The notes under the pieces are model-generated. The model was not told the origin of the DNA and did not search any database. It was given only the letters and a program-made list of their open reading frames with translations. This document shows, in pieces, positions 28,681 to 60,058 of a stretch of 64,000 nt of DNA; within the stretch, counting starts at the first letter, position 1, and each line of letters opens with the position of its first letter. The stretch comes from a bacterium. Its GTDB lineage: Bacteria > SM23-31. A program made the position numbers and the translations under genes. The stretch covers positions 1,374,782 to 1,438,781 of the forward strand of contig OZ244870.1 of the NCBI GenBank assembly GCA_965221205.1, given 5' to 3'.

Positions 28681-29463
28681 TTTTAAAGCGACCCGATAGG
28701 GCACTTTAAAATTGTGAATAAAGTTGATAGATACCGAGATCGGAATTTCTATAAATATAGGATGTTCCGGAGTGAAATATTCTCAATTTATGTAAAGACC
28801 TTCAGGAATTTATATGTCGTCTGTGTCTTCATCTTCTCCATTGTGGACATAGAGGTTGTATTGAACCAAAAACAGAGAGACGTTTTAACTATTTACACAG
28901 TAAATAGTGTTTACGCTCAGCACAATGGGAATAAATGGTTTATGGCGATTGTCATGGTTGTCAATTCCAAGAAAAGCCTGTCCAGTTGCCAGCTTGGCTG
29001 CAACCTGGGCATTACGCAACAAAAAGAAAAATCCATAGCTTGAGAAAACCCCCGTGTAGTAATTTAGTATCCAGTGTCAGACAAGATGCTCTCAAAGACA
29101 GCTCTCAAATCCGCGTTAAAGAATCTCCCTGAAATATAAAATAATTGTTGGTTGTTGTATAGAAATTTTATATTTTCGTTGGGGGACCCTCCCAAAGCCT
29201 GGTGAATAGTTAGGAACTTTTACGCCACGCCTTCGGTCGAATCAGCAAACGATACTGTTGTGATGACCGGCGGATCGTTGACCTTTCGCGCTGGGGTGGA
29301 TGAGGCGGCGAAGATCGCCCGTGAGCTGCGGGAGGTCTCATCAAAAACCGCTCAACACTGCGGAATCGTGATCGTGCAAAAGCGATAGCACCCCGGAGCT
29401 TCAAAGGCCAAGTGCGGTGACACCTGAATATATCGAAGCGCTCTCGGAGCTTTAGGGACAAAC

Positions 29464-32150
29464 ATGACGGGGACAATGATTTCAGATTACTTAATGAAGA
29501 AGGCGCAAGAGCTTCCCAGCGGCGCGCACTTCTACCGCTGCGCCTTGCAGGTAAACCCTTTCGCCTATTTGATCCGGTACAAAAAGCAAACGTCGTTCCA
29601 AAGTGAGGCGGAGTATAACGCGGCGATCATTGACGCGTGCCAGGAGGCGGAAATCAAGGTTATCGGTGTTACGGATCACTACCGGTTCGATGAATCGAAG
29701 GGCCTCTGGTCAAGGCGGCCCGCGATGCCGGGCTGTTCGCCTTCAGCGGCTTCGAGGCCGTCACCAAGGACGGCGTGCATTTTCTGTGCCTGTTCGATCC
29801 CGACAAGGACGATATACTCGAACGGTTCATTGGCGACTGCGAAGTTTATGATACGAAAGCGGCCTCGCCGACGGGAAGGTTCGATTCTACTGAACTGCTC
29901 GTCCAGGTGAAAAAGTGGGGTTCGGTCTGCGTGGCAGCACATGTCGCGGCCGAGGGAGGGCTTTTGAAAAAGCTCAATGGGCAGCCTCGCGCCAATGCGT
30001 GGAAGTCACCGGACCTACTAGCCTGCGCCCTTACCGGTCCGATTGCGGATGCGCCGGAAAACATCCGGCCTATTCTTGAGAACAAGGACGCGGCACACAG
30101 GCGCAACCGTCCTGTGGCCGTGATAAACGCCTCGAATGTGAACAGCCCCGAGGACCTGAAAAAGGAAGGAGCATTCTGTTTCGTCAAGATGTCGAGCATC
30201 TCCGTCGAAGGCTTGCGGCAGGCCTTCCTTGACCCTGAATCGCGGATCCATCTCAAGAGCGATCCGCAACCGGAACCGCACGCGGAGTTTCTGGCGGTGA
30301 CGTGGGAAGGTGGGTTCCTCAGCGATACATCCGTTCACTTCAACGGCAATCTGAATGTCCTGGTCGGCGGGAGAGGAACAGGTAAATCGACAATGATCGA
30401 GAGCATGCGCTATGCGCTTGGGCTGGATCCGCTCGGAGAAGAGGCTCGCAAGGCCCATGAAGGTGTTATCCGGCATGTGCTTCGCTCCGGAACCAAAGCC
30501 TCCTTGCTGGTGCGATCGCATAAGCCTTCCGAGCGGTACTATACTATCGAGCGATCGGTCCCGAATCCGCCGATCGTGAAGGACGAAACCGGGGCAGTTC
30601 TGACGCTCTCGCCGAAGGACGTGATGCCGGGTGCGGAGGTCTTCGGACAACACGAGATATCGGAACTCACCAAAAGCCGGGAAAAGCTGACACTGCTGCT
30701 GGAGCGGTTTGTTGACAGCGATCCAACACTGTCGGGGCGAAAGTTGAAGCTCAAGCTCGAGCTCGAACACTCGCGAAGCCGTATCATGGAGGTGCTCCGC
30801 GAGATGAAAGCTCTCGACGAGCGACTTGCGGCCCTTCCGGCTCTGGAAGAGACACAAAAGCGTTTCCAGGAAGCCGGGCTTGAAGAACGTCTGAAAGAGA
30901 GGAGCCTCGTCATTCGGGAAGAGCGCGTATTCGTGAGTGTCGGCGAACGACTTGATCCTGTCCGCACGCTCCACAGGGAATTGGTCGAGATGCTTCCCTT
31001 TGATGCCGCCTTCGTCTCCCCAAAGGCTTTGGAGGGACTCCCGAATGCGGCTATCTTGGAGAGGGTCGGATCGATTCTGTGGATGCTGAGCTCGAAGCTC
31101 AAGGCGATCCGCCGATCAGCTCGCCAAAGCGTTAGCGGAAGCGGACAGCGCTGTTGCCGGAACGAAAGCCCGATGGGAGAAGAAACGGGAAGTCATCGAA
31201 GACACCTATGAGAAGCTCCTGCGGGAGCTTCAGAAATCGAAGATCGACGGAGCCGAGTTCATCCGTCTGCGAAAGCAGCTTGAAGAGCTTCGACCGTTGC
31301 GGGAAAAGAAAGAGGACCTGAAGCGTTACTTAGCCAGTCACGAGAAGCACCGCCGCAAGCTGCTTGTCGAATGGGAGGACACCAAGGCAAGCGAGCATCG
31401 TGAGTTTCGAAGTGCGGCGAAGAAAGTTTCTCGCAAGCTCGGGGATCGGGTTCAGGTGGAAGTTACCATGGCGGGAAATCGTGATGCCGCTCGAGCGGCT
31501 CTTACGCAAGGTCGGGGGAAACCTGAGCGCCGCTCTGGAGCGGCTGCGTTCGCTGGACCAACTTTCGCTGCCGGACTTGGCGCAGTGCTGCCGTGAAGGG
31601 AAAGAGGCGCTGATGAAGAAATACTTCTTGCCGACAGGTTCGGCCGAGCGAATTACGCAAGCAGGCCCGGCCCTGTTCATGAGAATTGAGGAGTTGGACC
31701 TTCCGGCCGGCGACGACAAAGATCGAATTGAACACAGCACCGGACGGCGAGCCGTCCTCGTGGCAGACGTTGGAAACGCTATCGACCGGCCAGAAGGCAA
31801 CGGCTGTGTTGCTCCTTCTGCTGTTGGAGTCTGAAGCCCCGCTTGTTGTCGATCAGCCGGAAGACGACCTCGACAATCGGTTCATTACCGAGGGCGTGGT
31901 GCCGATTATGCGGCAGGAGAAACGCCGTCGGCAATTCGTCTTTTCGACCCACAACGCGAACATTCCAGTCCTCGGCGATGCGGAGTTGATCTTGGGCCTG
32001 GCGTCGGGAGAGGTTGGGGAAGGACATGCCAGAATAGCTACCAAGCATATGGGTTCAATTGACTCCAGACCGGTCCGCGAGCTGGTGGAAGAGATCCTCG
32101 AAGGGGGCAAGGATGCCTTCGAGATGCGGCGTTCCAAGTACGGGTTCTGA
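29464..32150 (+). pseudogene. PHP phosphoesterase + SMC/RecF-like ABC ATPase fusion (ppl-like defence gene), broken into at least 5 frames
   Basis: PHP motifs VIGVTDHYRFDE and GVHFLCLFD, Walker A VLVGGRGTGKSTM, coiled-coil middle, ABC signature LSTGQKATAVLLLLL, and Walker B/D-loop LVVDQPEDDLD. The pieces are ORFs 29464-29910, 29775-31211, 31297-31596, 31364-31834 and 31686-32150. Confidence 0.55.
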
Positions 32151-32153
32151 ATT

Positions 32154-33357
32154 ATGCCAATGCTCACCGAACTACTGGAGACCATTAGCAACGGAGAAAA
32201 CTCCGGGGTCGAGTTTAAGCGAGACACACTGCAAAACTACGATCTTGCAAAAGAGCTGGTCGCCTTCTCGAACCTTGGGGGCGGGATGGTGCTTCTTGGC
32301 GTGGAGGATGACGGAAGCATATCGGGCATCACCAGAGATAACCTCGAAGAATGGGTAATAACCACATGCCGGGACAAGATCAGACCGGCCATCATCCCCT
32401 TCTTTGAGATTGTTCGCAACGTCGAGCCGGGAAAGAACGTGGCAATTGTCCGTGTGACACGCGGCTACGACGTTCACAGCCTCTGGCACAGCAACAGCAG
32501 AAAGTATCACATCAGGGTAGGAACGCAGAGCAGGGAAGCGACTCCGGAAGAGCTGGGGCGGCTTTTCCAGCAACGGGGAACGGTCCGCGCTGAATTGCTG
32601 CCGGTCTCAGGATCGACTGTTGACGACTTGGACCGGCGACGACTTCGGGATTATTTTGTCCGTATTCGTCAACAGGACGTGCCCACTGACGCGGATGAAG
32701 CGGCCTGGATATCCCTTCTTGTAAACACGGAGATCATGACGGAGGATGGTGTCACCGTTAGCGGGATGCTCTTGTTTGGCACGACACCAAACCGTTTTCT
32801 TCCCCAGGCCGGCATTGACGCTGCAGCTTTCCCCGGAACGGGAAAAGACTATGCGGCGCGCGAACGCATGGCGCTCCGTGGCCCGATGACCACCTTGATC
32901 TCCGCAAATGGCGCTATCGTGGAAAACGGCCTGGTTGAACAGGCACTAGGGTTTGTGCTCCGGAATACCCCGGTGACGGCTGTCCTCGAAAACGGGAGAA
33001 GAGTCGAAAAGCCTGCCTATCCTCAAGAGGTGATCCGAGAGGCAGTTGTCAACGCGCTCATCCATCGCGACTACCTTCTCTCCAGCACGGATATCGAACT
33101 GGCCGTGTACAGCAATCGGCTGGAAATCGTTTCACCTGGACGGCTTTCAAACGGTATTACACGCCGGAACGGATGCGCGCAGGGACACGATCTGCCCGAA
33201 ATCAGCTCCTGAAGGATGTCATGCGGGACTACGGTTATCTGGAGCACATGGGGTGGGAATTCCGCTAAAGATCATCGCAGGGATGCAGAAGCACAACAAT
33301 ACAACGCCTGAACTGATTGAAGACCAGGAACGCTTCATCCTGCGCGTGCGGACATGA
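32154..33357 (+). pseudogene. AlbA_2 (Schlafen-like) DNA-binding + HATPase_c_4 protein, C-terminus frameshifted
   Basis: N-terminal ENSGVEFKRD...LAKELVAFSNLGGGMVLLGVEDDGSISGI is an AlbA_2 signature. C-terminal REAVVNALIHRDY...IEIVSPGRL is HATPase_c_4. The tail GYLEHMGWGIPLKIIAGM continues in a different frame (33181-33357). Confidence 0.55.
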
Positions 33358-33503
33358 CGGAGGTTCGTCAGATGGAGGATGCATTCCACCTCATCGAGGA
33401 AGATCTCATCTTGTGGTTGGCGATGTGCTGGGCGATCTCGAGATCACCGATTCGCTGCTGTCCCGACGCAGGTTGGACACGTGACTCCGCAACCGGATTA
33501 AGG

Positions 33504-35022
33504 AGCTAACACAATGAATAGAAAGTTTAAGAGATATGCAGAAAAGACCTACCCCCCCCCTCGAAAAATTAAATCTTCATTCAAGAACGATTTTCTGCCG
33601 CGATAATTTGCCGGTTCTGCGGGGCATTAACAGCAATTCCATAGACCTGATTTACTTAGACCCTCCGTGACCCTCCGTTTAATAAAGGACGTAATTTCCA
33701 TTTGCTCCTATTGGCACAACCGCAGAAGGGGCTGATTTCAGGGATATATGGTCGCCAGACGAAGTTAAGGACGAGTGGCATAATCAGATAAATGATCGCT
33801 TTCCCGAGTTATACAAATACCTCAATGCCGTTGGAGATATCGGAAGCAGGTCAGCAAAATATTATCTGATTTATATGGGGGTAAGGCTTATCGAGATGAA
33901 ACGAGTGTTGAAGGATACCGGAAGTCTGTATCTACATTGCGACCCGACCGTTTCGCATTATCTAAAATTGTTGTTGGATACAATTTTCGGACATGCGCAG
34001 TTCAGGTCCGAAATTTCATGGAAACGCACTTTTTCGCACAATGACAGTCGAACGTTTGGAAATGTTCGGGATGTAATTCTGTTTTACGGAAATTCGGACA
34101 TAAACACCGGTTCCGTTCGGGTTCCTTTGAATAACGAGTATGTCCAAAAATTCTATCGTTACGAAGATTCCGTAGGACGCTATGCGGCTATCGATTTAAC
34201 AGGGCAGGGACGTCGGTAGGGGAAAGTGGCAACCCGTGGAGAGGCATTAATCCTGGTGATGTGGGAAGGCAGTGGTCCGTTCCGTTGACAGGCAATTACG
34301 CCACGTGGATCGAGGAAAACATTATACCGGGATACAGATCTATCGGGAGGCCACAGGAACGACTGGACGCACTTGATAACGTTGGGATGATTCACCAATC
34401 CAGAACGGGACGGAGAGTACCGAGCCTCAAACGTTACCTCAAAGCCGCACAGGGTCAGGTTCCTTCTAACTCATGGGACGATATAAACGCTGTGCAGTCT
34501 CATTCCAAAGAACGCACCGGTTATCCTACGCAAAAACCACTTGCCCTGTTAGCGCGGATAATAAAAGCCAGTTCAAACCCGGGCGACATAGTGCTAGATC
34601 CGTTTTGTGGTTGTGCAACAACCTGTATTGCTGCTGAAAAACTTGAAAGGCAGTGGATTGGAATTGACGTTTCAAAAAAAGCATACGACTTGGTGATAGA
34701 GCGGCTTAAGAAGGAAGTTCCTCCAGACTTGTTCAGGGGAAAGCCTATTTTCAGAACGGATAGACCGACAAGAAACGATGTGCTCTATAAGAAAGTTCCG
34801 ACAAAGGAAGACAGGTTTTATCTATACGGAAAACAAAACGGCACGTGTTGCGGCTGCAATACCCAGTTTGAAATACAGCATCTTGAAATAGATCATATAG
34901 TTCCCCGTTCACAAGGTGGAGGTAGTGAGCGTGAAAACCTTCAACTACTCTGTGGTCATTGTAATCGTACAAAAGGCGACCGCCCAATGGAATATCTAAT
35001 GGCACGACTTAAAGTCGCTTAA
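33504..35022 (+). pseudogene. beta-class N4/N6 DNA methyltransferase (PF01555-like) fused to a C-terminal HNH endonuclease, with at least 4 disruptions
   Basis: RBS AAGGAG, then MNRKFKRYAEKTYPP and a C9 tract (33551-33559); one fewer C gives IFCRDNLPVLRGINSNSIDLIYLDPP. A 10-bp tandem duplication gaccctccgt (33659-33678) introduces a stop after DPP. Further along: KDTGSLYLHCD, TGYPTQKPLALLARII, FCGCATTCIAA, and HNH CCGCN...EIDHIVPRSQGG...LLCGHCNRTKGD. Confidence 0.6.
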
Positions 35023-35040
35023 ATCCTTTCATTAAAATAA

Positions 35041-35661
35041 GGACAAATCCATACCGACACGTTTAAGGAACAACTCAAATCTGTCATCAGTGAGTATGAA
35101 TCAGCTGCATCAGACACAATCTCCAACATGCAAATTATTGAAAGAATTGCTGGCCGAAATTCTGTTTATTTTAAACAGGTCATGAGAATTGATAAGGACA
35201 AGGAGTTCTCTAAGAAATTTAACATGATATCAATGAGTTCGGAAGAGGCTTACATATATAACACAATTTATATGATGGTGCACTATCTCGCCACATCGAT
35301 TTCGTTCGAAAACAGGGGGCTTGCAGCGCCCGGCAGTATCGATTCTGTTCCGGTGTCTGCAGATAAAGAGGATTATAACTCAAATGGCATGTGGAGCGCA
35401 CGTAAAGCTTGGAAAATTATCGAAAACGCTGAGCGGATTATTGCAGTTGAACTGTTATGCGCCGCTCAGGCTGTCGATTTCCACAGCGAGTACAAGCCGG
35501 GAAAAGGAACACAAGCGGCGTATAATGTGATTCGGTCAAAAGTGAAAATGCTGAAACAAGACCGAATAATCGGTAAAAATATTCAATCTGTCATCGGTCT
35601 AATCCGGACTGGCAATCTGGTAGAGGCTGTAGAAAAGTCTGTTGGAAAATTGTCGCTTTAG
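35041..35661 (+). pseudogene. hutH: histidine ammonia-lyase, C-terminal ~205 aa fragment only
   Basis: NAERIIAVELLCAAQAVDF is a HAL/PAL C-terminal motif. The frame opens right after a stop at 35038-35040. The N-terminal ~300 aa, including the MIO-forming ASG motif, are absent. Confidence 0.55.
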
Positions 35662-36684: not shown

Positions 36685-37020
36685 TTAAGTAAAAAATGAC
36701 TATAATCCAGGTTGTATGTTATTTCATTTTTGTGTATCTTTGAGATGTGAAAGCGGTAATGCCGGGGTGGTGAAATTGGTAGACGCGCTGGACTCAAAAT
36801 CCAGTAGGCTTCGGTCCGTGAGGGTTCGAGTTCCTCCCTCGGCACTGTAGTAAAAACAAGGACTTACAAGGATTGTTTATGAGTCCTATAAATGTCTGAA
36901 GATTTTACTCCCACCGCTATTCCCACCATAAAGCACATGTTTTGAGTGGCTTCATTAAATTAATTTGGTCTATTTATAGGATGATTTTGATGTGACCATT
37001 GCCCGACGTACCATTTCATT
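36648..37020 (+). repeat. direct repeat copy 1 (MBL 3' end + tRNA-Leu + ~180 bp downstream)
   Basis: About 85-90% identical to 39851-40213 by eye. Shared strings: cgcatatttgacgaggatgcatccgg, tgtgtatctttgagatgtgaaagcggtaatgccggggtggtgaaattggtagacgcgctggactcaaaatccagt, cgacgtaccatttcat. Confidence 0.8.
36761..36844 (+). tRNA. tRNA-Leu (anticodon CAA), copy 1; weak variable arm, possibly degenerate
   Basis: Acceptor stem GCCGGGG/CCTCGGC, D-arm TGGTGAAATTGGTAGAC, anticodon loop CTCAAAA, long variable arm, T-loop TTCGAGT. Confidence 0.7.
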
Positions 37021-39850: not shown

Positions 39851-40213
39851 GCGCATATTTGACGAGGATGCATCCGGCAAAAATTAATCAAGTAAAAAAT
39901 GACTATAATCCGGGTTGCATGTTATTTCATTTTTGTGTATCTTTGAGATGTGAAAGCGGTAATGCCGGGGTGGTGAAATTGGTAGACGCGCTGGACTCAA
40001 AATCCAGTGGGAGCAATCCCGTGAGGGTTCGAGTCCCTCCTCCGGCACTATAATAAAAAAGGACCTATAATGTTGAATTGTAAGTCCTTGTTTGTGTCCA
40101 ATATTTTATTCCCACCATAAAGTACATATTTTAAGTAGTTTCATTGAATCCTATTGATCAATCTTAATTTGTATGACACTGGTGTGAGTATTTCACGACG
40201 TACCATTTCATCC
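39851..40213 (+). repeat. direct repeat copy 2
   Basis: See copy 1. Confidence 0.8.
39964..40047 (+). tRNA. tRNA-Leu (anticodon CAA), copy 2; canonical variable arm and T-stem
   Basis: Same acceptor stem, D-arm and anticodon arm as copy 1. The variable arm gggagcaatccc pairs cleanly. T-stem GAGGG/CCCTC. Confidence 0.8.
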
Positions 40214-40359
40214 AATGAGGATGATTACTTAATGCCATTTTTTGAAATGATGGATAATTTAGATAGGATATTAAAGCAGGATATAGTAAACAATGCACAG
40301 ATTTTTTAATTCGACATGAGTATCATATCTAATTTGAGAATGATCAGCAAATAAATTAC

Positions 40360-42231
40360 TTATATCCAGCCCAAAATAACTTCATTCCCAAAATCTTTTA
40401 TTACTTTTAACCCCGCCTGTTCTATGCTCTCAGGAGTCCAATTTGGCATATCTGTTTCGTCAAGCAAATCCAAATGAACAATAAATATATTCACATTATA
40501 TGATTTGAGTGTTTCCTGACTAGCAGGATCAAGAATAGTATTAATACATGAAGTTATCTCTCTATAAGTTTCAGGAAAAAAAGTTGAATACCCATTGATG
40601 ATGGGCTTATTGTGATAAGTGGTATAGTAAAAATATTTTACCTCTCGCTGCGTAAATTCATGCCGCCGCTCTCCGTAAACCGGATCATACTTGGTTCCAT
40701 CTCCCTTTCTTGCTGGAACTTCAGCAACACCTCCATTTATCTCTTGGTCCTTTAACCAATGATACACCTCGGGCACATTATCGCCCGTTTGAATCAGATG
40801 CATCGGGAAGGGAAACGCCAAATATTCCATAATAACCAGACAGACAATGATAGGTGTAATCCATTTCTTTATAGGGTGCACTTTAAACCGGTCGAACAAA
40901 TAGTAAATACCTCCGATACTCAATATTGATGCTGCAAATAGCACTATGATCCCAAAACGTGCAGGTACACGCATAACATCAAAGGCGGGTAAAATGTAAT
41001 ACATCAATAAGTATGGCAGAGGAAGATAGAGAAAATGCCCAAATAACGTTAAGAATGGTCCAAAGGAAAGTATTAAGAATACAATCAATATCCAAAGAAA
41101 TGGTTTTTTGTACACAGCAATACCTGGATTCATTGATTCAGAAAAATAAAAAATACCCAAGATCATACATGTTATAAGGACAAATCCAAGATAGAGAGGG
41201 TTCCCTCCTGTACTATTAATAATGGAGGAAAAGCGCTCAAATGGAAGCTTTTCTTTAATGGTGTCACCGGGTAACTTGTCTGCTCCCAGATTTCTTGCTT
41301 GTTCCCCCAATAAGGGAAGTGCCATCTCAAAGACTCTGCGTTCCAGAGGTAGTTCACCAAAGAACGGTTTTTCTGACTGGAAACCACCCATTAGCATATT
41401 ATTGTCTGGAGCACGGAAATAATCATCAAGACTGGCGGAATATTGAAGGTTTTCGCCAAGCGATTTTTTCATTCCACCTTGAGATGTAATTGTGTTATAA
41501 TAATAAGCAAACGTGCCGACGACTATCAGGATCAACGCTATACCGGGAACAGCTTTAAAAGCCATCTTTTTAAGATCAATGGTTTTTCTTTCTTTCAAAA
41601 AGCATATTACAGTATAACATAAAATTGCTAGAGAGAGCATATAACCGATATACCAACTCGAAAGCATCTGCAGACAGTATACAATCGCTGCAAATATGAA
41701 AAATTTTGCTTTCTTTTCTTTCAGAAATTTATCGAAAAATAAAAAAAAGAGTGGGATCCAGTAGATCATATGTATGTGGAAAGTAAAAGCTTCTTTTAAT
41801 GGAGAAAAGCCGTAAAACAAACCTGCAATGAAGCTTATGGAGTAATTTTTAGATATATGAAAAGCAAAGAGAAACATGAACAGTGCTGATAGGAAGTATG
41901 AAAATAATATTAGTACATTTGTTGCAAGAATCGGATTACCGGTAAAATAAAATACTGGTGCAAAAAAAATCTGATGACCAACCAGGATATCATTGAGCGC
42001 GCTCTGAGTCTGAGGGTAAAAAATATTGATATCAAAAATGTTATTGCCCGGTTCAAGAAAAATATTATGGTAATTCCAGTAAAGGATTGAAGCATTGCCG
42101 ACAGGATCACCATTGCTATAAGAGATACTCGATGCGAAAGATACTATTAGAGGATACGTTAGAATTATTGCAAGTAAAAAATATATAGCAGCACAAACGA
42201 CAAAATGCTTACAACTCTCAATCTTTATCAT
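40360..42231 (-). CDS. polytopic membrane protein, GT-C-type glycosyltransferase-like (PMT_2/ArnT/YfhO-like)
   Basis: 623 aa with more than 12 predicted TM helices and large loops. Located in a sugar-modification gene context. Confidence 0.45.
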   Translation of the reverse strand: MIKIESCKHFVVCAAIYFLLAIILTYPLIVSFASSISYSNGDPVGNASILYWNYHNIFLEPGNNIFDINIFYPQTQSALNDILVGHQIFFAPVFYFTGNPILATNVLILFSYFLSALFMFLFAFHISKNYSISFIAGLFYGFSPLKEAFTFHIHMIYWIPLFFLFFDKFLKEKKAKFFIFAAIVYCLQMLSSWYIGYMLSLAILCYTVICFLKERKTIDLKKMAFKAVPGIALILIVVGTFAYYYNTITSQGGMKKSLGENLQYSASLDDYFRAPDNNMLMGGFQSEKPFFGELPLERRVFEMALPLLGEQARNLGADKLPGDTIKEKLPFERFSSIINSTGGNPLYLGFVLITCMILGIFYFSESMNPGIAVYKKPFLWILIVFLILSFGPFLTLFGHFLYLPLPYLLMYYILPAFDVMRVPARFGIIVLFAASILSIGGIYYLFDRFKVHPIKKWITPIIVCLVIMEYLAFPFPMHLIQTGDNVPEVYHWLKDQEINGGVAEVPARKGDGTKYDPVYGERRHEFTQREVKYFYYTTYHNKPIINGYSTFFPETYREITSCINTILDPASQETLKSYNVNIFIVHLDLLDETDMPNWTPESIEQAGLKVIKDFGNEVILGWI

Positions 42232-43254
42232 CAGGTTCCTTGTTTTAGTTTTGAAAAGAAATTGAGTTAAATATCAAAAAAAATTCAGGAATAGTCAAAT
42301 GAAAAAGTCCTATATGAATTCTGTTGAAATGTCTTTTCATTAGAAAATTATTCAAATAATAAATGATAATAAGACAAGATGAAAAGAGTTTTTCTTGCGG
42401 ATTCTACATTTGATTTTGCACACAGTTGATTCAGGATTCGTCTTTGGACTCTTACTCTTTATTAGCCCAGGTTGTTCGAGTGTGCAGATTCAGGCATTAA
42501 TCAGTAACAATTTGTTTGATAACTCCTTTTGGTTTACTATTACATTACTTCACTCAAATGACATTACTGTCGCTTCGTATTGTAACTATTATTACCTTGA
42601 ATATTCTGAACCGATAAAGTGTAACTATTGTTACAACGATAACAGCACTTACGATCAAATTCGTAACGAATGACCTTTACTTAACCATGCTTTTATTTTG
42701 ATTTAAAAGTTAATATATAGAAAATTATGCTTATTTTATACCTGTAGTCTATATAATAACTGATCAATATTTGAATACAATATATTAGCAAAGATATTAA
42801 GATGTCCTTTGCCATTAATTTTCTAAGAAACTTGTCAAGAGATAAAAAAAGCGGCGTCCATTAAATAGACATAAGTTGTATCAAACTATTAACGATTCTG
42901 AATGGCGAGAAACCAATAATGAATCTCATGATAAAGCTGGTCTTATCATTTTTGATCAAGTATAGGGTAGAAGTGAATATGAAAACTGCTGACAATATTC
43001 ACGAGAAAAAGATTACCTCAATTGTCGAAAGTACCTGTTATTTGCGATCTAAAAAGACGGCTCGATTATAAGTACACAAATAAGAATATAACTTAGAATC
43101 GCAAAAAATTTTGAGAATTAAATGTGGAAATCAAAAAATTTAGATAAGCTGTTATTTGTGTTCGAAAAATTTCAAAAAAGTACACTGGTTATAGCAAGTG
43201 GGTCACCAACATCTCCACATCTGCTTCCTGTGCTCTGTAAAATATAATATTATA

Positions 43255-44958
43255 TCATTTTTTTGAAACGATAAAATCCTCAAACAGGATGTAATCTGCA
43301 TTTTGAATTAAAAGACTTTTTATAGCATCTTCAGGAGAGCATACAATAGGTTCTTCATGATTATTAAAACTAGTATTTATTAATGTCGGAATACCTGTCA
43401 AATTATAATATTCCAGTAACAAATCGTAATAGAGCCGATTGAAATCACTATTGACAATTTGCGGTCTTGCAGTATTGTCCACGTGAACTATACCGGGAGT
43501 TTCCTTGTTCGCCCTCTCTGTGCAAACATAACACAGAGTCATAAAATAACTTGCTAAGTGCTCCTTTTTCCATCCGACGTAATATTCATGAGCATATTCT
43601 TCAAGGGTAATCGGAGCGAATGGCATGAATTCAGTTCGATTTAATCTTTTATTTAATATTTTTGTAATATCTTTATCTGTCGCCCTAACGATAATACTTC
43701 TAGCTCCAAGAGCTCTGGGACCGTATTCCATTCTTCCCTTGAAAATTCCGACATATTTACCATCTGAAATATCTTTTGCCACCAGTTTAAGAGTATAATC
43801 ATTCAAGGATGTAATGTTCAATTCTGTATTGTACCTATTCAGAACTTCACTTATTTCTGATTTTGAATATTTTGGACCTAAATAAACATGCTTTAAAGGA
43901 TATTTTATACTCCCACCGTTTTCGTAAAGTTTTATTAATGCACCTCCTAAAGCATTACCTCCATCACCCATTTGAGGAAATACATATATATTATCCACAT
44001 CTTCCAATTCATAGATTTTTTGATTTAACTTTACATTTCCAAACAAGCCACCAGCAACACAAATATTTCGGAGTCCGGTTTCGGCTATGAATTTTGATAG
44101 GTATTTAAGAGTAATATCTTCCGTTACATACTGTACTGCTGCTGAGATATCTTCTTTACTGAATTTATCCAACTCCTTTTCAATGTTTGGGAGTTTATTT
44201 GTAGGAAAGGGCGAAAATTTTTCCCCTATATTAGCGATTATTTTACCTTCTTTGTAATCAATCATAGATGTAATGATATCAACACACTTCGTATGGTCTC
44301 CGTATGCGGCAAGTCCAGTTACCTTACCTTCATGCTTATTTGGTGTAAATCCCAAGTAATTTGTAATATAGGCATATAAACTTCCTAAACTATTATACAT
44401 GCTCACGGAATCCAATAATTCAATGCCATCTTTACGAGATGCTGAACAAACCGTAGCACTTTTAAAATCTCCGCGTTGATCGATTGTTAAAACTAACGCA
44501 TCCTCAAACGGAGAGGGGTAAAAAGCTGTAAAGGCATGAGAAAGATGGTGGTCATAAAAGCTGATTTTTTCCTCTGGAAAACCAATTTTGACAACTTGTT
44601 CAATTAATTCCTTCTTAAATCTATGGTCACGCTCGACAGCAACTCTTGTACGGTCACTGAGGAGTTTTTCCGCAGTTGAATCATTCAATATCGCTTTTAG
44701 GACATCATCCATGCACTGGGGCAAGAATTTCTCATCGATACCTTTCCAGGCTCCACAAGCAACAAAATCTATGTCCTCCGGCTTAAGCGAACTGTTTTCC
44801 AAGCAATATTCTATTGATTTTCTTGGAAATGACCGATCGTTTTTGACTCTGGTAAAACGCTCTTCATTTACACTTGAAACAATCTCGCTATCGATAATTA
44901 TAGAAGCACCGCTTACCTGGGCGTTGCATACTCCAAGTATTATAGTATTATTTTTCAT
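43255..44958 (-). CDS. carbamoyltransferase (NodU/CmcH family)
   Basis: 567 aa with an N-terminal ASKHA-like fold (ILGVCNAQVSGASII..VNEERFTR) and a C-terminal YrdC-like carbamoyltransferase domain. Confidence 0.75.
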   Translation of the reverse strand: MKNNTIILGVCNAQVSGASIIIDSEIVSSVNEERFTRVKNDRSFPRKSIEYCLENSSLKPEDIDFVACGAWKGIDEKFLPQCMDDVLKAILNDSTAEKLLSDRTRVAVERDHRFKKELIEQVVKIGFPEEKISFYDHHLSHAFTAFYPSPFEDALVLTIDQRGDFKSATVCSASRKDGIELLDSVSMYNSLGSLYAYITNYLGFTPNKHEGKVTGLAAYGDHTKCVDIITSMIDYKEGKIIANIGEKFSPFPTNKLPNIEKELDKFSKEDISAAVQYVTEDITLKYLSKFIAETGLRNICVAGGLFGNVKLNQKIYELEDVDNIYVFPQMGDGGNALGGALIKLYENGGSIKYPLKHVYLGPKYSKSEISEVLNRYNTELNITSLNDYTLKLVAKDISDGKYVGIFKGRMEYGPRALGARSIIVRATDKDITKILNKRLNRTEFMPFAPITLEEYAHEYYVGWKKEHLASYFMTLCYVCTERANKETPGIVHVDNTARPQIVNSDFNRLYYDLLLEYYNLTGIPTLINTSFNNHEEPIVCSPEDAIKSLLIQNADYILFEDFIVSKK

Positions 44959-45051
44959 GTTTTTCCAAATAAATTTGTTTGTTCAGTTATAGTTAATAAT
45001 ATTCACTCTTATTATGAGAATCTGTAACATTTTCCTTGAGGATATATTTTG

Positions 45052-46464
45052 TTATACAAACAAAGGTGACTCCTCACTTAACGGTTTATCCAATTCTGGT
45101 TTTGGTTTACCTGAAGAAATATAATCGGCTATGGTAAAACCCATTTCAAGTGCTTGAAACATTTGAATATATGTAAAAAGTGCCTGTCTACCACCAGAAT
45201 AAAGATTTTCTATTTTGTTGAGGTACTGATAAATGTTTATAAGTTGTTCTTCATAGTCAATTGTCGGAATTGGATAACCAAATTTTGTTCGCAAAACAAT
45301 ACCACTACTATAGACTCTCTTAATATCGTAGCCTTCATTTTCTAAACCTGTCAATACTTTTTCTATAATTTCCTCATCAGTTAATGACCATATTTCATCC
45401 TCTGGAAAACAGGTTATCTCTGCCGTAAGGGCGCATTTCCCTTTAGGAGCTGATTCTTGAGAAAAATAATTCATCTGTCCTACTCTATTGAAAATCTGTT
45501 GGTGAAAATACATGTATTCAGCCCCTAAGATTGAATTGGTATTTACAACAATGCAGGCAATTAAAATCGCACGATATCTTAAACTATTCACTGCCTTTAA
45601 AATGTTTTCAGGTGGATGAGGTTCTATAGAATTTAGCAACGTAGTGACAGGAATTGTTGAGATACATATGTCGGATGACATGCTGATTTCAGATCCATTA
45701 ATATCAACAATAACTTCTTTAACTTTGTTTTTATTGATAATAATTTTCTTTACAGAGTGATTAAGCAAAGTTGTTCCGTAATTTTTTGTAATTAATTTAT
45801 CTATCCTCATTGGAAAAGTTCCTGACCCTTGAATAGGGTAATATTGGGATGTTACATAATTGTCCTTTGTCAATTTGTTTTTTTCTCTACCGAATAAATC
45901 AATAATCGAATTGACAGCTAACTGGATCAAAGTTCTATTGGGAATTCTGTGTTTTAAAAAAGCATTGCTTAAATCCTTTGGATGTATACCCCATACTTTT
46001 TGAGTATATTTCTCAAAAAATAGTTCATACAATTTTCGACCATAAAGCGAAATATAAAATTCTTCTAAACTGCCTACTATTAGTGAATTGTCCTTTATAA
46101 TTAGATTTTGTGTGTAGCTAAGTAGAGCAGATAAAATCGTGGATATGTTTAGATTTGCAAGTAAATTTATTGGCTTGATCGGATAGGATAACTTTTTATT
46201 TTGAAAAGTAATCATCACATTTTTTGTTAATTCATTGATATCACCATCCATAACTTCCATAAAGAAATCAAGAAACTCTTTGCTTCTTGCATGAAAAGTG
46301 TGTGGACCAAAATCAAAAAAACAGTCATTAAAGCGAAATGAAGCTGCCAATCCTCCGATATAATTCTGTTTCTCAATAATTGTAAGATCTGTTTCTTTTC
46401 CAGCAAGTTTAATTCCTGCACCCAGCCCCGCAAGGCCCGCACCTAATATAGTTATCTTCTTCAT
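45052..46464 (-). CDS. FAD-dependent oxidoreductase (amine-oxidase / UDP-galactopyranose-mutase superfamily)
   Basis: ILGAGLAGLGAG dinucleotide-binding motif and GGLAAS...GPHTFH. Confidence 0.6.
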   Translation of the reverse strand: MKKITILGAGLAGLGAGIKLAGKETDLTIIEKQNYIGGLAASFRFNDCFFDFGPHTFHARSKEFLDFFMEVMDGDINELTKNVMITFQNKKLSYPIKPINLLANLNISTILSALLSYTQNLIIKDNSLIVGSLEEFYISLYGRKLYELFFEKYTQKVWGIHPKDLSNAFLKHRIPNRTLIQLAVNSIIDLFGREKNKLTKDNYVTSQYYPIQGSGTFPMRIDKLITKNYGTTLLNHSVKKIIINKNKVKEVIVDINGSEISMSSDICISTIPVTTLLNSIEPHPPENILKAVNSLRYRAILIACIVVNTNSILGAEYMYFHQQIFNRVGQMNYFSQESAPKGKCALTAEITCFPEDEIWSLTDEEIIEKVLTGLENEGYDIKRVYSSGIVLRTKFGYPIPTIDYEEQLINIYQYLNKIENLYSGGRQALFTYIQMFQALEMGFTIADYISSGKPKPELDKPLSEESPLFV

Positions 46465-46484
46465 TTAAATATTGTTCACTTTCG

Positions 46485-47609
46485 TTATAAAGATCTTAAA
46501 ACGGCAATCACATAATCTTGTTCTTCAGTAGTCAAACCGGGATAAAGTGGCAGTGCAATTGTCTGTATTGTCGCTTTTTCTGTTTCAGGTAGATTTAAAT
46601 CTCGGTATTCTTCACAATATGCGAGTTCTTTATGAATAGACTGGATTCCTCGCTTTGCGTTAATTCCTTTGTTGTTAAGACATAAAAGTATCTCATTTCT
46701 GCTCAGTGTGGAATCGTTTTTTACCCGCACCAAATACGATTGATAATTTGGATCGCAATTATGCGGCACCTGCGGTATGATGAAAATTTTTGAACCTTTC
46801 AGCGCAGCATCATACCGTTCTGCTAATTCACAACGTTTTCTGATTATTTCATCAAGTTTATCCATCTGTTGAACGCCTATGGCAGACTGCATATCGGTTA
46901 TCCTGTAGTTATAACCTCTTTTCACATAATCCTCAAACAGAATTGTTTCGGATGTGTGGCGCTCTTGCGGTTGAACAGACATACCATGGTTTCGGAGAAG
47001 TATTAATGTTTTATACATTTTTTCATCATTCGTCAGCACTGCGCCACCCTCGCCTGTTGTAATTATTTTTCGCGGATGAAAACTGAAACAGCATAAATGC
47101 TCCGAGTTCCCTATTTGCTTCCCTTTATACTTAGCACCGAGGGCACACGCAGCGTCTTCAATAACTATTAGTCCATGCTTTTTTGCAATCACTGAAATCG
47201 CATCTATATCGGCAGGCATACCGACCTGATGAACCGGCATTATTGCTTTTGTTGCAGGTGTAATTGCGTTTTCAATATGTTGAGGATCGATGTTGTATGT
47301 AGATGGATCGATATCAACAAATACAGGTCGTGCACCAGTATGAACAATGGCATTAGCAGTTGCAATAAATGAAAAAGATGGTAATACTACCTCATCTCCA
47401 GGCACAATACCATGAACCGTTAAAGCAAGATGTAAAGCAGTTGTACCCGAAGATACTGCAACCGCATGATTAACTCCCGTATAAGCAGTTAAACGATCTT
47501 CAAATTTTTTTGTCTCGTTTCCTTGAGCTAACCATCCGCTGTTAATAATATTTTTGACGGACTCCGCCTCTGTTCCGTCGAAATATGGCTTTGTGATAGG
47601 AATGTTCAA
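46485..47609 (-). CDS. DegT/DnrJ/EryC1/StrS-family PLP-dependent sugar aminotransferase
   Basis: 374 aa of typical DegT-family sequence with the active-site Lys region SFHPRKIITTGEGG. Confidence 0.85.
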   Translation of the reverse strand: MNIPITKPYFDGTEAESVKNIINSGWLAQGNETKKFEDRLTAYTGVNHAVAVSSGTTALHLALTVHGIVPGDEVVLPSFSFIATANAIVHTGARPVFVDIDPSTYNIDPQHIENAITPATKAIMPVHQVGMPADIDAISVIAKKHGLIVIEDAACALGAKYKGKQIGNSEHLCCFSFHPRKIITTGEGGAVLTNDEKMYKTLILLRNHGMSVQPQERHTSETILFEDYVKRGYNYRITDMQSAIGVQQMDKLDEIIRKRCELAERYDAALKGSKIFIIPQVPHNCDPNYQSYLVRVKNDSTLSRNEILLCLNNKGINAKRGIQSIHKELAYCEEYRDLNLPETEKATIQTIALPLYPGLTTEEQDYVIAVLRSL

Positions 47610-47634
47610 GAAAAGTCCGAAAAGTCATTAATTA

Positions 47635-48618
47635 CTATAATATGTTTTTATACCAATCGATAGTCTTTTTAAGTCCTTCTTCAAGTGCAACTTTGGGACT
47701 ATATTCGAGCATCTGTTGAGCTTTTGATATATCAGGTACACGAAGTTGAACATCGATACCCATATGGTCATTAAATTCAATCTCTGAATCGGATTCGAGA
47801 TAATTAATAATTTTCTTAGCCAATTCAAAAATAGTAACCGTTGCCTGTGGATTACCGATATTGAATGAGTTACCTGTAATTTTAACGGAACAAATACTAC
47901 TTTCAACAGCATCTACAAAATCATCGATATAACACCAAGATCTGATCTGGACACCGTCTCCCGTTATTACAACATTTTCATTTGCAAGCGCATTGTTGGT
48001 AAATATCTGGATTGCGCCCTCTCCAACCTGACCGGGCCCATAAATATTGAATGGCCGCATTGCAACCATTGGAATTTTTTTCTCAAGAAAGAAGCAATAA
48101 CAGAGCTTCTCAGCCGCAAGTTTACTGATAGAATACGTCCATCGAGCATCTTTTATATCACCTTGGATGGTTTCTCCATGTTCAGATGCTCGAAAGATAT
48201 GTGGACCATAAATCTCACTTGTGGAGAAATATATTAACAACTCAAGATCGATCTCTTTAAGAATACTGAGTAGATTAAAGGTACCGATCATATTAACTTC
48301 CATGGTCTTAAGTGGCATCTTGTAATAAGAAGAAACACCAGCTATTGCTGCGGCGTGGATAACAATGTCAACATTCTTAATTGATTTCTTCAAATGTTCC
48401 ACATCAAGAATATCACCTTCGATAACAGTCACATTCTCATGGTCTTTACAGTCAAAATATTGTAATGCGTTCCGGTGTCTGTTGTCATATAGTATGACCT
48501 TATTATCTTTGTGAAACCGCTCGCAGAGTGCGGTGCCAATAAATCCTGCGCCTCCGGTAATGAAAATCACTTTATCTTTCACTTTCACGATGCTGGCCCT
48601 CTCTTCTTTAACTATCAA
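47635..48618 (-). CDS. NAD-dependent sugar epimerase/dehydratase (SDR extended family)
   Basis: TGGAGFIG Rossmann motif and YxxxK (YSISK). Confidence 0.85.
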   Translation of the reverse strand: MIVKEERASIVKVKDKVIFITGGAGFIGTALCERFHKDNKVILYDNRHRNALQYFDCKDHENVTVIEGDILDVEHLKKSIKNVDIVIHAAAIAGVSSYYKMPLKTMEVNMIGTFNLLSILKEIDLELLIYFSTSEIYGPHIFRASEHGETIQGDIKDARWTYSISKLAAEKLCYCFFLEKKIPMVAMRPFNIYGPGQVGEGAIQIFTNNALANENVVITGDGVQIRSWCYIDDFVDAVESSICSVKITGNSFNIGNPQATVTIFELAKKIINYLESDSEIEFNDHMGIDVQLRVPDISKAQQMLEYSPKVALEEGLKKTIDWYKNIL

Positions 48619-49251
48619 TGATCATTTCCGCAAAGAGTATACTAAAATCATGATGTTTAACTATCGGATTTACACTTGCTGCTCTTTAGATTTGAAACAA
48701 TGAGTCCAATTGATTAATATAACGAATATTCAAGCAATCTACAAAAATTATTTCTCTTGCTAAATTCGCTGGAGAATATTGGTCTCGAATACAAAAAACT
48801 AGCAGCTTGACCGCAGATTGTCGTTTATTTGGTTTTTGTCGTAAACTTTTTTTATTCTGACTGAAAAATCTGCTGAACGAAAAAGTTTTAAGAACTCCAT
48901 CTGCTATTATAGCCAGTCGACATGTCATTCAACGAACACGAAGACCAATATTTATTATTTTGTGACCATGAGCAGGCAATTGCCACCGAACGTGGAGTCG
49001 AGTATTTATATCCGCCACAAAAGGAGCTTATTCTCATTAAATAAATTCGCAAATCGTACAGTCTGGAGAACAGAAAATTCTTTGAAAAGCTAAATGAATC
49101 CTTTAATTTCAACTTATAGTGTCCGACTTGTTCTGACGACATACATCATATTTCTTGCACACTCCCAATTATTCTCTTTCAGAAGTTTAATATGGGGAAT
49201 ATCAGATAAATCAAATAATAATAACACTTCAAAGAAAACTTTGGAGGAGGA

Positions 49252-58792: not shown

Positions 58793-60058
58793 ATGATTAT
58801 TGGGACAGGTTCACGGGACGATTTGCTTTCCGAAAAAATAATTTTAGAACTATGTAAAGAGGCTTTCTCTAAAAAGAATCTTAATAATAAACGTGTTCTT
58901 GCAATTATTCCCGATAATACTCGGACAGCACCCATCGACACTATGTTTAGAATAGTCTTCAATCTGTTGAAAAACCGAGTAAAGTCACTTGATTTTCTTA
59001 TCGCTCTCGGTACTCATCCCGCTCTGAGTGAAAAAATGATATATGAAAGAGTAGGTATCACCCGGAAAGAAAGGCAGTCTCTTTATGCTGATGTCAAGTT
59101 TTACAATCATGAGTGGAAAAATCTTGACCAGTTGCAATATATTGGAACAATCGATGAATGTGAGGTTGAAGAAATCTCACATGGATTAATGCGCCAAAAT
59201 GTGGATATAACGATCAATAAGCTTGTTTTTGGGTATGATGTACTTTTAATTATAGGCCCTACGTTCCCTCATGAAGTGGTAGGTTTTTCAGGTGGAAATA
59301 AATATCTGTTTCCTGGAATTGCCGGAGAGAAGACAATACATATGTTTCACTGGCTTGGAGCGCTCATTTCAAATCCATACATTAGTGGCATAAAAGACAA
59401 TTCTGTTCGACAGATAGTGGATAAAGCAGCTTCTTTATTACCCATGGAGCGGGTTTGCATGAGTCTTGTTGTAAAAGAAGAAGGTCTTGCGGGTCTTTTT
59501 ATTGGTATACCGGAAGAGGCTTATTCAGCTGCAGCAGATCTTTCAAAAGAAATACATATAATTTACAAAAATCATTCATTTAACAAGGTACTGACATGTG
59601 CTCCCGCGATGTATAAGGACTTGTGGACAGGCGGAAAGTGTATATACAAGCTTGAATCGGTAGTATCGGACGGTGGGGAATTGATAATGTACGCTCCGCA
59701 TATAACAGAAGTCTCCGTAACTCATGGGAAAATACTGGAAAACATTGGCTATCATGCCATGGATTATTTTATAAAAAATTCAACAAAATTCAACAATATC
59801 CCGGGAGCATTAAAAGCTCATTCAACTCATGTAAAAGGAATTGGTTCTTATGATAACGGCATAGAAAAATCTCGGATTAATGTGGTACTGGCTTCAAAAA
59901 TTCCTGAACAATTATGTAAAAAAATAAATCTCGGATATCGTGATCCGAATTCAATTCATATTGATGAATGGAAAAACCGTGAAGATGATGGAGTTTTATT
60001 TGTTTCTAAAGCAGGAGAAATATTATATCGGCTAAAAGAAGACCCATTCATAAATTGA
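58793..60058 (+). CDS. LarA-family (nickel-dependent lactate racemase-like, DUF2088) protein
   Basis: 421 aa. RVLAIIPDNTRTAP resembles the LarA N-terminal DxTR region. Overall LarA-like length and layout. Confidence 0.55.
   Translation: MIIGTGSRDDLLSEKIILELCKEAFSKKNLNNKRVLAIIPDNTRTAPIDTMFRIVFNLLKNRVKSLDFLIALGTHPALSEKMIYERVGITRKERQSLYADVKFYNHEWKNLDQLQYIGTIDECEVEEISHGLMRQNVDITINKLVFGYDVLLIIGPTFPHEVVGFSGGNKYLFPGIAGEKTIHMFHWLGALISNPYISGIKDNSVRQIVDKAASLLPMERVCMSLVVKEEGLAGLFIGIPEEAYSAAADLSKEIHIIYKNHSFNKVLTCAPAMYKDLWTGGKCIYKLESVVSDGGELIMYAPHITEVSVTHGKILENIGYHAMDYFIKNSTKFNNIPGALKAHSTHVKGIGSYDNGIEKSRINVVLASKIPEQLCKKINLGYRDPNSIHIDEWKNREDDGVLFVSKAGEILYRLKEDPFIN

What the first reader, a model, noticed from the sequence alone, without database searches (positions are those of the whole stretch)
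33504..35022. DNA methyltransferase-HNH fusion with a C9 tract near the start codon and a 10-bp tandem duplication
The MTase reads correctly only if the poly-C run at 33551-33559 has 8 residues rather than 9 (YPP-LEKLNLHSRTIFCRDNLPVLRGI...IDLIYLDPPF). Tracts of this length are the classic slipped-strand phase-variation switch of mod genes. Independently, gaccctccgt is duplicated in tandem at 33659-33678, placing a stop right after the DPP(F) catalytic motif. Further shifts occur near 33680 and 34212. The C-terminus is an intact-looking HNH nuclease (CCGCN...HIVPRSQGG...CGHCNRTKGD), so the original protein methylated and cut DNA in one polypeptide. The combination suggests a formerly phase-variable R-M-like enzyme that has since been inactivated.
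Basis: seen in the sequence. Interest (0 to 1): 0.6.

Follow-up and report, generated by a model that had tools for sequence, protein, structure and literature searches.

The report
Dead phase-variable methylase-nuclease gene
This is the broken remnant of a single gene that both methylates and probably cuts DNA. Its intact relatives in other uncultured bacteria carry the same run of C's just after the start codon, in lengths that switch the gene on or off, so the run looks like a real genetic switch that no longer matters here.

Summary
Once repaired, the sequence is a 491-aa Mod-like beta-class N6_N4 methyltransferase with an intact C-terminal HNH. The fusion is ancestral: more than 8000 homologues were found, and almost all of those listed carry both domains.

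All four lesions recur in two further public assemblies, one of them a 34x circular 3.4-Mb contig, so they are not an assembly artefact. A low-coverage strain in the same sample has C9 but none of the other three lesions. The decay is therefore recent.

The main new result is that every member I inspected of the clade 61-77% identical in protein has a poly-C run (C9-C16) at this position. Some are in frame and some are not. In one case two proteins identical over 463 residues are ON on one contig and OFF on others. In another, two strains 99.7% identical carry C10 and C13. Four more distant species carry their own C or G runs at the same place, against 0.04 expected for runs of 9 or more.

Verdict: a pseudogene of a contingency-type methylase-nuclease gene. 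It is a new member of a known kind, of moderate interest.

The parts
33500..33505 (+). Shine-Dalgarno sequence AAGGAG, 8 nt before ATG 33514
   Evidence: Read from the sequence. Conserved in L001, L174 and L176.
33514..33606 (+). Likely ancestral start codon and the 30-codon out-of-frame ORF it now opens (MNRKFKRYAEKTYPPPRKIKSSFKNDFLPR*)
   Evidence: The same ATG is in frame with the methylase in L001 and L176.
33536..33538 (+). Second ATG, which is in frame with the methylase at C9. It has no good SD.
   Evidence: It is the gene caller's start in L174 (P0122).
33552..33560 (+). Poly-C tract (C9), a remnant of the contingency switch
   Evidence: Homologous tracts of C9-C16 occur in L002-L006 and L166-L171.
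33659..33678 (+). Exact 10-bp tandem duplication of GACCCTCCGT across the DPPF motif IV codons. It creates TGA at 33668-33670.
   Evidence: Absent from L001, L174, L176 and all orthologues. Present in L172 and L173.
33701..33703 (+). TTT containing a +2 insertion (ancestral CAT GCT, now CAT TT GCT)
   Evidence: L174 has CCATGCTCC and the window has CCATTTGCTCC.
34204..34206 (+). Site of a 1-nt deletion (GGGCCAGGG became GGGCAGGG), leading to TAG at 34217-34219
34597..34623 (+). AdoMet-binding motif I (DPFCGCATT)
   Evidence: Six of these nine residues (D, P, F, G, C, T) are invariant in the family alignment.
34846..34968 (+). HNH core (CCGC ... DH ... N ... CGHCN)
   Evidence: PF01844 5.7e-13 and PF14279 6.4e-10. 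The Cys/DH/N columns are invariant.
33514..35022 (+). The whole MTase-HNH pseudogene, stop TAA at 35020-35022

Best explanation
The locus is a recently decayed copy of a solitary gene. That gene encodes a Type III Mod-like, beta-class N6_N4 DNA methyltransferase fused to a C-terminal HNH nuclease domain.

In intact relatives, a poly-C run lies between the start codon and the first conserved strand (..R-T-I-F-C-x-D-N-L..). When it is in frame it encodes 3-5 prolines. Slipped-strand mispairing that changes the run by one base moves the start codon out of or into the methylase frame. Two of every three lengths therefore give a peptide of 30 residues or fewer (OFF), and one gives the full enzyme (ON).

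In this genome the run (C9) is out of frame with the SD-preceded ATG. I infer that the unexpressed gene then accumulated a 10-bp tandem duplication, a +2 insertion and a -1 deletion, and these make the OFF state irreversible.

Shown here: the domain identity, the lesions and their reproducibility, the recurrence of the tract, and the ON/OFF length variation among relatives. Inferred: that switching actually occurs and is adaptive, that the HNH cuts DNA, and the order of events (OFF first, then decay).
For: Domains: Pfam hits and PADLOC Type II/III MTase hits. The AF2 model (pLDDT 87.9) best matches EcoP15I Mod and beta-class N6A MTases.

Fusion: it is conserved across the family, with catalytic residues invariant.

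Lesions: all are private to the window lineage relative to L174, which comes from the same sample, and all are reproduced in L172 and L173. The repaired protein keeps every family-invariant residue. dN/dS against L001 is 0.15, so selection acted until recently.

Tract lengths and states in the close clade: C11 ON (L002, L003, L171), C10 ON (L005), C9 OFF from the homologous ATG (L004), C16 OFF (L006), C10 OFF (L166, L167, L169), C13 OFF (L168, 99.7% identical to L167), C12 OFF (L170).

ON/OFF pairs: P0302 (OFF, on 10 contigs) is an exact suffix of P0308 (ON). Within clusters at 90% identity or more, about 17 long (ON) and 34 short (OFF) gene calls were listed.

Independent tracts in distant members: C10 in a Gammaproteobacterium, C9 in Paracoccaceae, G9 in Hyphomonadaceae and G7 in Rhodobacter. 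Four of 79 species-level loci have a run of 9 or more in the 90-nt 5' zone against 0.04 expected (P about 9e-8). The count is 0 of 76 and 0 of 78 in the two control sets of distant relatives, most of which lack the HNH domain.

DNA-level conservation: CCC is only 23% of proline codons elsewhere in these genes, so selection for prolines alone would not keep an unbroken C run.

Locked-ON case: the intact near relative L175 has lost the tract and uses a new ATG.
Against: No reads were available, so tract heterogeneity within a population was not seen directly. All four window-type assemblies show C9. Many OFF calls come from HiFi metaMDBG contigs, where long homopolymer lengths can be miscalled by one base. 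The ON:OFF ratio of about 1:2 is what unselected drift of tract length would also give. ATG 33536 is in frame at C9, so the tract state in this genome is ambiguous. No member of this family has been characterised biochemically, and no paper on the fusion was found.
Confidence: 0.7

Rival explanations
1. The C run is only a proline-coding linker, or a translational pause site, at the N-terminus. It happens to be mutable, and the length differences among relatives are neutral polymorphism or homopolymer miscalls rather than a switch.
For: In ON alleles the run encodes PPP to PPPPP. The ON:OFF ratio is close to the random 1:2. Most OFF alleles are from HiFi assemblies. The intact L175 works without any tract.
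Against: Unbroken C runs persist in orthologues only 61-77% identical, although CCC is just 23% of proline codons elsewhere. Two distant members use G runs that would encode Gly, not Pro. OFF alleles keep long intact downstream ORFs. The C10 versus C13 difference is larger than a typical miscall. OFF calls also occur in Logan assemblies, which were built independently of the metaMDBG HiFi contigs. Illumina scaffold L004 has C9 out of frame with the homologous ATG, although an upstream GTG is in frame.
Confidence: 0.2
2. The frameshifts and the duplication are assembly or sequencing artefacts, and the gene is really intact.
For: Homopolymers and low-coverage regions are error-prone. L174 (2x coverage) does show scattered single-base noise.
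Against: L172 is a 34x circular contig from another assembly and is 99.91% identical. L173 comes from a different assembler and is 100% identical. Both carry C9, the 10-bp duplication, the TT insertion and the 1-nt deletion. The flanks align to L001 with no gaps over 4.1 kb, whereas the island has 23 gap openings, so indels are local to the island and not a general error.
Confidence: 0.03
3. The gene is still expressed, through ATG 33536 plus recoding, or as a shorter HNH-containing product from the 253-codon ORF 34261-35022.
For: ATG 33536 is in frame at C9. The C-terminal ORF keeps motif I and the HNH intact. dN/dS is 0.15.
Against: An in-frame TGA follows DPP and there are several more stops before the next frame. 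No slippery site is evident. The 253-aa product would lack motif IV and most of the target-recognition domain. Relative L176 has also mutated DPP to DHS. The low dN/dS is explained by recent inactivation, as the L174 allele shows.
Confidence: 0.03

Closest known systems
Phase-variable Type III mod genes (phasevarions, e.g. modA and modH of Haemophilus, Neisseria and Helicobacter)
   Same: A beta-class, Mod-like methyltransferase fold, with EcoP15I Mod as the best PDB match. A simple-sequence repeat in the 5' coding region shifts the frame. The N- and C-termini are conserved while the central target-recognition domain is swapped between alleles (P0012, P0013, P0015).
   Different: There is no Res partner, and no conserved neighbour at all in 88 loci. 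An HNH domain is fused to the C-terminus instead. The hosts are uncultured environmental or symbiont bacteria rather than host-adapted pathogens. The repeat is a homopolymer, not the tetra- or pentanucleotide repeats common in mod genes (own knowledge).
Phase-variable single-polypeptide restriction-modification enzymes and HNH restriction enzymes with homopolymer tracts (Campylobacter Cj0031 Type IIG, own knowledge; H. pylori HpyAII, a phase-variable HNH Type IIS enzyme, PMC7494987 abstract)
   Same: A G/C homopolymer in the ORF gates expression. Methylase and nuclease functions sit in one chain (Cj0031), or the nuclease is an HNH (HpyAII).
   Different: Type IIG enzymes combine an N-terminal PD-(D/E)XK nuclease with a gamma-class methylase. 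Here a beta-class methylase precedes a C-terminal HNH. HpyAII is a separate endonuclease, not a fusion.
Solitary beta-class N6-adenine methyltransferases (CcrM, M.RsrI, M.MboIIA, M.BceJIV)
   Same: Motif order IV (DPPF), then target-recognition domain, then motif I. Sequence and fold matches.
   Different: Those enzymes have no nuclease domain and no repeat tract. This family also has a larger Mod-like inserted recognition domain.

Membership tests
N6_N4 (beta-class) DNA methyltransferase, PF01555 | Profile match above the curated cut-off | tested here: met
   152.5 bits against a cut-off of 26.7 on the repaired protein.
N6_N4 (beta-class) DNA methyltransferase, PF01555 | Catalytic motif IV (D/S)PP(Y/F) placed N-terminal to AdoMet motif I (the beta-class order) | tested here: met
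   DPPF is at repaired residues 42-45 and DPFCGCATT at 351-359. D, P, P and F of motif IV and six of the nine motif-I residues are invariant in 30 sequences. In the window, DPPF is split by the 10-bp duplication.
HNH / His-Me finger nuclease, PF01844 | Profile match above the cut-off, with a catalytic Asp-His, a conserved Asn and two CxxC zinc ligands | tested here: met
   49.2 bits against a cut-off of 21.4. C434, C437, D449, H450, N464, C469, C472 and N473 are invariant.
HNH / His-Me finger nuclease, PF01844 | DNA cleavage or nicking activity | not testable with these tools
   Inferred only from the conserved catalytic residues.
Phase-variable (contingency) methyltransferase or R-M gene | A simple-sequence repeat inside the 5' ORF whose length sets the reading frame | tested here: met
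   C9 lies 12 codons after the SD-preceded ATG. C8 or C11 would be in frame.
Phase-variable (contingency) methyltransferase or R-M gene | Repeat length differs among closely related strains, giving both ON and OFF alleles | tested here: met
   Met for relatives: C10 versus C13 at 99.7% identity; P0302 OFF versus P0308 ON with otherwise identical sequence; about 17 long and 34 short calls within clusters at 90% identity. Not seen in the window lineage itself, where all four assemblies have C9.
Phase-variable (contingency) methyltransferase or R-M gene | Reversible switching within a population, with a change in the methylome | not testable with these tools
   Needs read pile-ups and kinetic methylation data.
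Type III restriction-modification system | A mod gene paired with a res (helicase-nuclease) gene | tested here: not met
   No conserved neighbouring gene in 88 loci. The only recurrent neighbour is an IS1595-family transposase, in 14 of 88.
Type IIG/IIL single-chain R-M enzymes (MmeI-like) | An N-terminal PD-(D/E)XK nuclease followed by a gamma-class methylase | tested here: not met
   The architecture here is a beta-class methylase followed by a C-terminal HNH.
Pseudogene | Frame-disrupting lesions relative to intact orthologues that are reproducible across assemblies | tested here: met
   Three indels plus the tract, compared with intact homologues of 484-498 aa. The same lesions occur in L172 and L173.

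The most novel reading that the evidence does not exclude
The Mod-like MTase-HNH fusion is a mobile, self-contained one-gene restriction-modification (or homing-type) module. It circulates among uncultured bacteria of many phyla, many of them from taxa known in sponges, and it is often found next to IS1595 transposases. One clade of it, plus several independent members, has evolved a 5' poly-C/G contingency tract. That would make it a phasevarion-like epigenetic and defence switch in uncultured, apparently host-associated bacteria rather than pathogens. Separately, the excess of exact 10-bp tandem duplications in this genome may be the footprint of an undescribed excision or staggered-cut repair process.
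Probability: 0.35. Interest if true: 0.6.

Novelty: new member of a known kind. Interest (0 to 1): 0.45.

Why it matters
Phase-variable methyltransferases have been studied mostly in host-adapted pathogens. Here the same device, a homopolymer in the 5' coding region, is conserved across a clade of an uncharacterised methylase-HNH fusion. The hosts are uncultured bacteria from several phyla, and ON and OFF alleles coexist in public metagenomes. This suggests that stochastic switching of defence or epigenetic state also operates in environmental and symbiont communities. It also names concrete public samples in which this could be tested from existing HiFi reads. The copy in this window is simply a dead gene. 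Its value is that it shows one likely fate of such a gene: stuck OFF, then decayed.

Tried and rejected
- The JGI metagenome scan and the viral scan returned only relatives at 50% identity or less, most without HNH and none with a tract. I used them as negative controls only.
- Literature searches for the fusion under several spellings found nothing. Papers on phase-variable R-M concern pathogens.
- The promoter/terminator scan of 33200-35300 gave no more sites than shuffled sequence.
- I tested whether the fast-diverging island (29.4-33.15 kb, 12% from L001 against 0.8% in the flanks) reflects hypermutation. The substitution spectrum is symmetric and GC content is equal in both copies, so I rejected that.
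- I first read the +2 insertion as a frameshift shared with L001. L174 shows that the window-type allele lacked it, so the two +2 events are independent.
- I looked for a conserved partner nuclease or helper gene and found none.
- Recoding, or a functional split gene, was considered and rejected because of the multiple stops.

Full report
**What is in the sequence**

The C run is nine bases long, at 33552-33560. It is the only C/G homopolymer of 7 or more in the 64-kb window. GACCCTCCGT is duplicated exactly at 33659-33668 and 33669-33678. The methylase frame therefore reads ..L-D-P-P-TGA.

The three-frame translation and alignment to relatives place two further lesions:
- a +2 insertion inside TTT at 33701-33703 (ancestral CAT GCT);
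- a missing C beside 34205 (relatives have GGGCCAGGG), which leads to TAG at 34217-19.

An AAGGAG Shine-Dalgarno sequence (33500-05) precedes ATG 33514. From that ATG, C9 is out of frame and translation ends at 33606. A second ATG at 33536, without a good SD, is in frame with the methylase at C9.

**What the gene was**

After removing the three indels, the protein is 491 aa (the first repair, used, was 492 aa). It matches N6_N4_Mtase (2e-44) and HNH (6e-13), both above the curated cut-offs. It also matches PADLOC Type II and Type III methyltransferase models.

More than 8000 homologues were found. Nearly all of the best 120 are 450-510 aa and carry both domains. In an alignment of 30 sequences, DPPF, the motif-I core (DPF.GC.T) and the HNH residues (two CxxC, D-H, N, N) are invariant.

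An AlphaFold model of the intact homologue P0001 (pLDDT 87.9) best matches EcoP15I Mod and beta-class N6-adenine methyltransferases. No solved structure contains the fusion.

No neighbouring gene is conserved across 88 loci. The gene often sits alone between housekeeping genes, for example between coaBC and ilvD, or next to rpsT. In 14 of 88 loci an IS1595-family transposase is adjacent. The central recognition domain is swapped among otherwise similar proteins (P0012, P0013, P0015). Phage contigs carry methylase-only relatives.

**The lesions are real and recent**

The window's own ORFs occur in public assemblies. L172 is a 34x circular 3.42-Mb contig that is 99.91% identical to the window. 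L173 is a Logan assembly that is 100% identical. Both carry C9, the duplication, the TT insertion and the 1-nt deletion.

The flanks align to a related genome (L001) at 99.2% identity with no gaps. The island at 28.6-36.0 kb has 23 gap openings. The indels are therefore local decay rather than general sequencing error.

L174 is a 2x-coverage contig from the same sample as L172. It has the same allele with C9 but lacks the duplication, the +2 and the -1. So all three arose recently.

Three further observations fit recent decay:
- The repaired protein keeps every family-invariant residue.
- dN/dS against L001 is 0.15.
- Relatives L001 and L176 carry a different allele. The tract is interrupted and 11 nt longer, so ATG 33514 is in frame. 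They have their own +2 at the same spot (CCA-CG-CGCTCC), and L176 has DPP mutated to DHS.

The neighbouring Ppl/TrlF-like ATPase and the AlbA_2/HATPase_c_4 genes are also frameshifted here, yet both are intact in L176.

**The tract is a conserved, length-variable feature of the clade**

Every orthologue I could inspect in the clade 61-77% identical in protein has a poly-C run at the homologous place, between the start codon and ..R-T-I-F-C-x-D-N-L.

| Locus | Tract | State |
|---|---|---|
| L002, L003 | C11 | ON |
| L171 | C11 | ON |
| L005 | C10 | ON |
| L004 | C9 | OFF from the homologous ATG |
| L006 | C16 | OFF |
| L166 | C10 | OFF |
| L167, L169 | C10 | OFF |
| L168 | C13 | OFF |
| L170 | C12 | OFF |

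L168 differs from L167 by only 14 of 4440 downstream bases. P0302 (OFF, on 10 contigs) is an exact suffix of P0308 (ON).

Within clusters at 90% identity or more, gene calls fall into two groups. About 17 are long forms, with N-termini such as MPPPPNF, MTPPPNF and MNLPPPPNFQ, or ..HRPPPPNF versus ..HRPPPPPNF. About 34 are short forms that start downstream.

CCC makes up only 23% of proline codons elsewhere in these genes. Selection for prolines alone would not preserve an unbroken C run at this level of divergence.

Distant family members in Gamma- and Alphaproteobacteria have their own runs at the same position: C10, C9, G9 and G7. Four of 79 species-level loci have a run of 9 or more in the 90-nt 5' zone, against 0.04 expected (P about 9e-8). 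The count is 0 of 76 and 0 of 78 in the two control sets of distant relatives, most of which lack the HNH domain.

The intact near relative L175 has lost the tract and uses a new ATG.

**Interpretation**

The evidence fits a contingency gene switched by slipped-strand mispairing. In this lineage it then decayed; I infer that this happened while the gene sat in an OFF state.

Caveats:
- No reads were examined.
- All four window-type assemblies show C9.
- Many OFF calls come from HiFi assemblies, in which long homopolymers can be miscalled.
- The 1:2 ratio of ON to OFF is also what neutral drift would give.
- Nuclease activity and the methylated base are inferred from conserved motifs only.

**Host**

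The window's Lon protease is closest (75-76% identity) to proteins named candidate division KSB1. The best family hits in species-level genomes are mostly MAGs of Poribacteria, Dehalococcoidia and other taxa that I know as sponge-associated. They also include a Nitrosopumilus.

**Comparison with known systems**

The locus works like a Type III mod phasevarion. It shares the Mod-like fold, the 5' repeat and the swappable recognition domain. It fails the defining mod-res pairing. It also resembles phase-variable single-chain or HNH restriction enzymes, but it does not have the Type IIG architecture.

I found no paper on this fusion. I rate it a new member of a known kind, of moderate interest. 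The copy in this window is an ordinary pseudogene.

Noticed in passing
window 8203-8222, 33659-33678, 51705-51724, 59775-59796: Exact 10-bp tandem duplications are over-represented: 4 observed against 0.08 expected from Markov simulations, with none of period 9 or 11-15. Only 2 unrelated ones occur in 1.04 Mb of other loci. Those at 33659 and 51705 are absent from relative L001, so they are recent. The one at 8203 sits at the truncated end of a sigma-54 activator fragment. The one at 59775 lies in a LarA-like ORF that is 421 aa in all relatives, so it is old. This could be an excision or staggered-cut footprint. The cause is unknown.
   Followed up: partly
window 33699-33704; L001 about 9800; L176 about 3800: Two allele lineages have independent +2 insertions at exactly the same position after the NFH codons (TT in the window, CG in L001 and L176). 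L174 has neither. This coincidence is unexplained.
   Followed up: partly
window 29400-33150: A high-GC (0.57) stretch holds a frameshifted Ppl/TrlF-like ATPase and a frameshifted AlbA_2/HATPase_c_4 gene. It is 12% diverged from L001, while the flanks are 0.8% diverged. The substitution spectrum is symmetric and many small indels occur in both lineages. Both genes are intact in L176.
   Followed up: partly
window 36761-36845 and 39964-40048; 40200-50300: Two tRNA-Leu(CAA) genes have repeated flanks. After the second one the window has about 10 kb of low-GC DNA (carbamoyltransferase, DegT aminotransferase). At that place L001 has an IS1595 transposase plus a second MTase-HNH paralogue, itself frameshifted. 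This looks like an integration hotspot.
   Followed up: partly
L011, L020, L029, L036, L043, L047, L070, L071, L073, L074, L079, L080, L170, L171; L001 16197-16928: An IS1595-family transposase lies directly next to the MTase-HNH gene in 14 of 88 loci, and also next to L001's second copy, which was not among the 88. The gene may travel with, or be targeted by, this IS family.
   Followed up: partly
proteins P0012, P0013, P0015 compared with the window gene: Family members share near-identical N- and C-terminal parts but have unrelated central recognition domains. P0012 combines the scaffold of the second paralogue type with the window-type recognition domain, which indicates domain swapping by recombination.
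   Followed up: partly
window 35128-35661: This 177-aa ORF matches only the last 95 or so positions of the 466-position aromatic amino-acid lyase profile, so it is a gene fragment.
   Followed up: no
window 2163-3401: The Eco57I-like N6 methylase ORF is 412 aa here but 267 aa and 658 aa in close relatives. It is another variably truncated R-M gene in this lineage.
   Followed up: no
L001 11172-11194: A 23-nt near-copy of the HNH 3' coding sequence is inserted about 100 nt downstream, after the stop codon, in L001. It is absent from the window and looks like a templated insertion.
   Followed up: no
L078 3839-3852: A G14 run lies inside the coding region of a Gammaproteobacterial family member, about 740 nt after DPPF. 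It may be a second kind of tract position.
   Followed up: no
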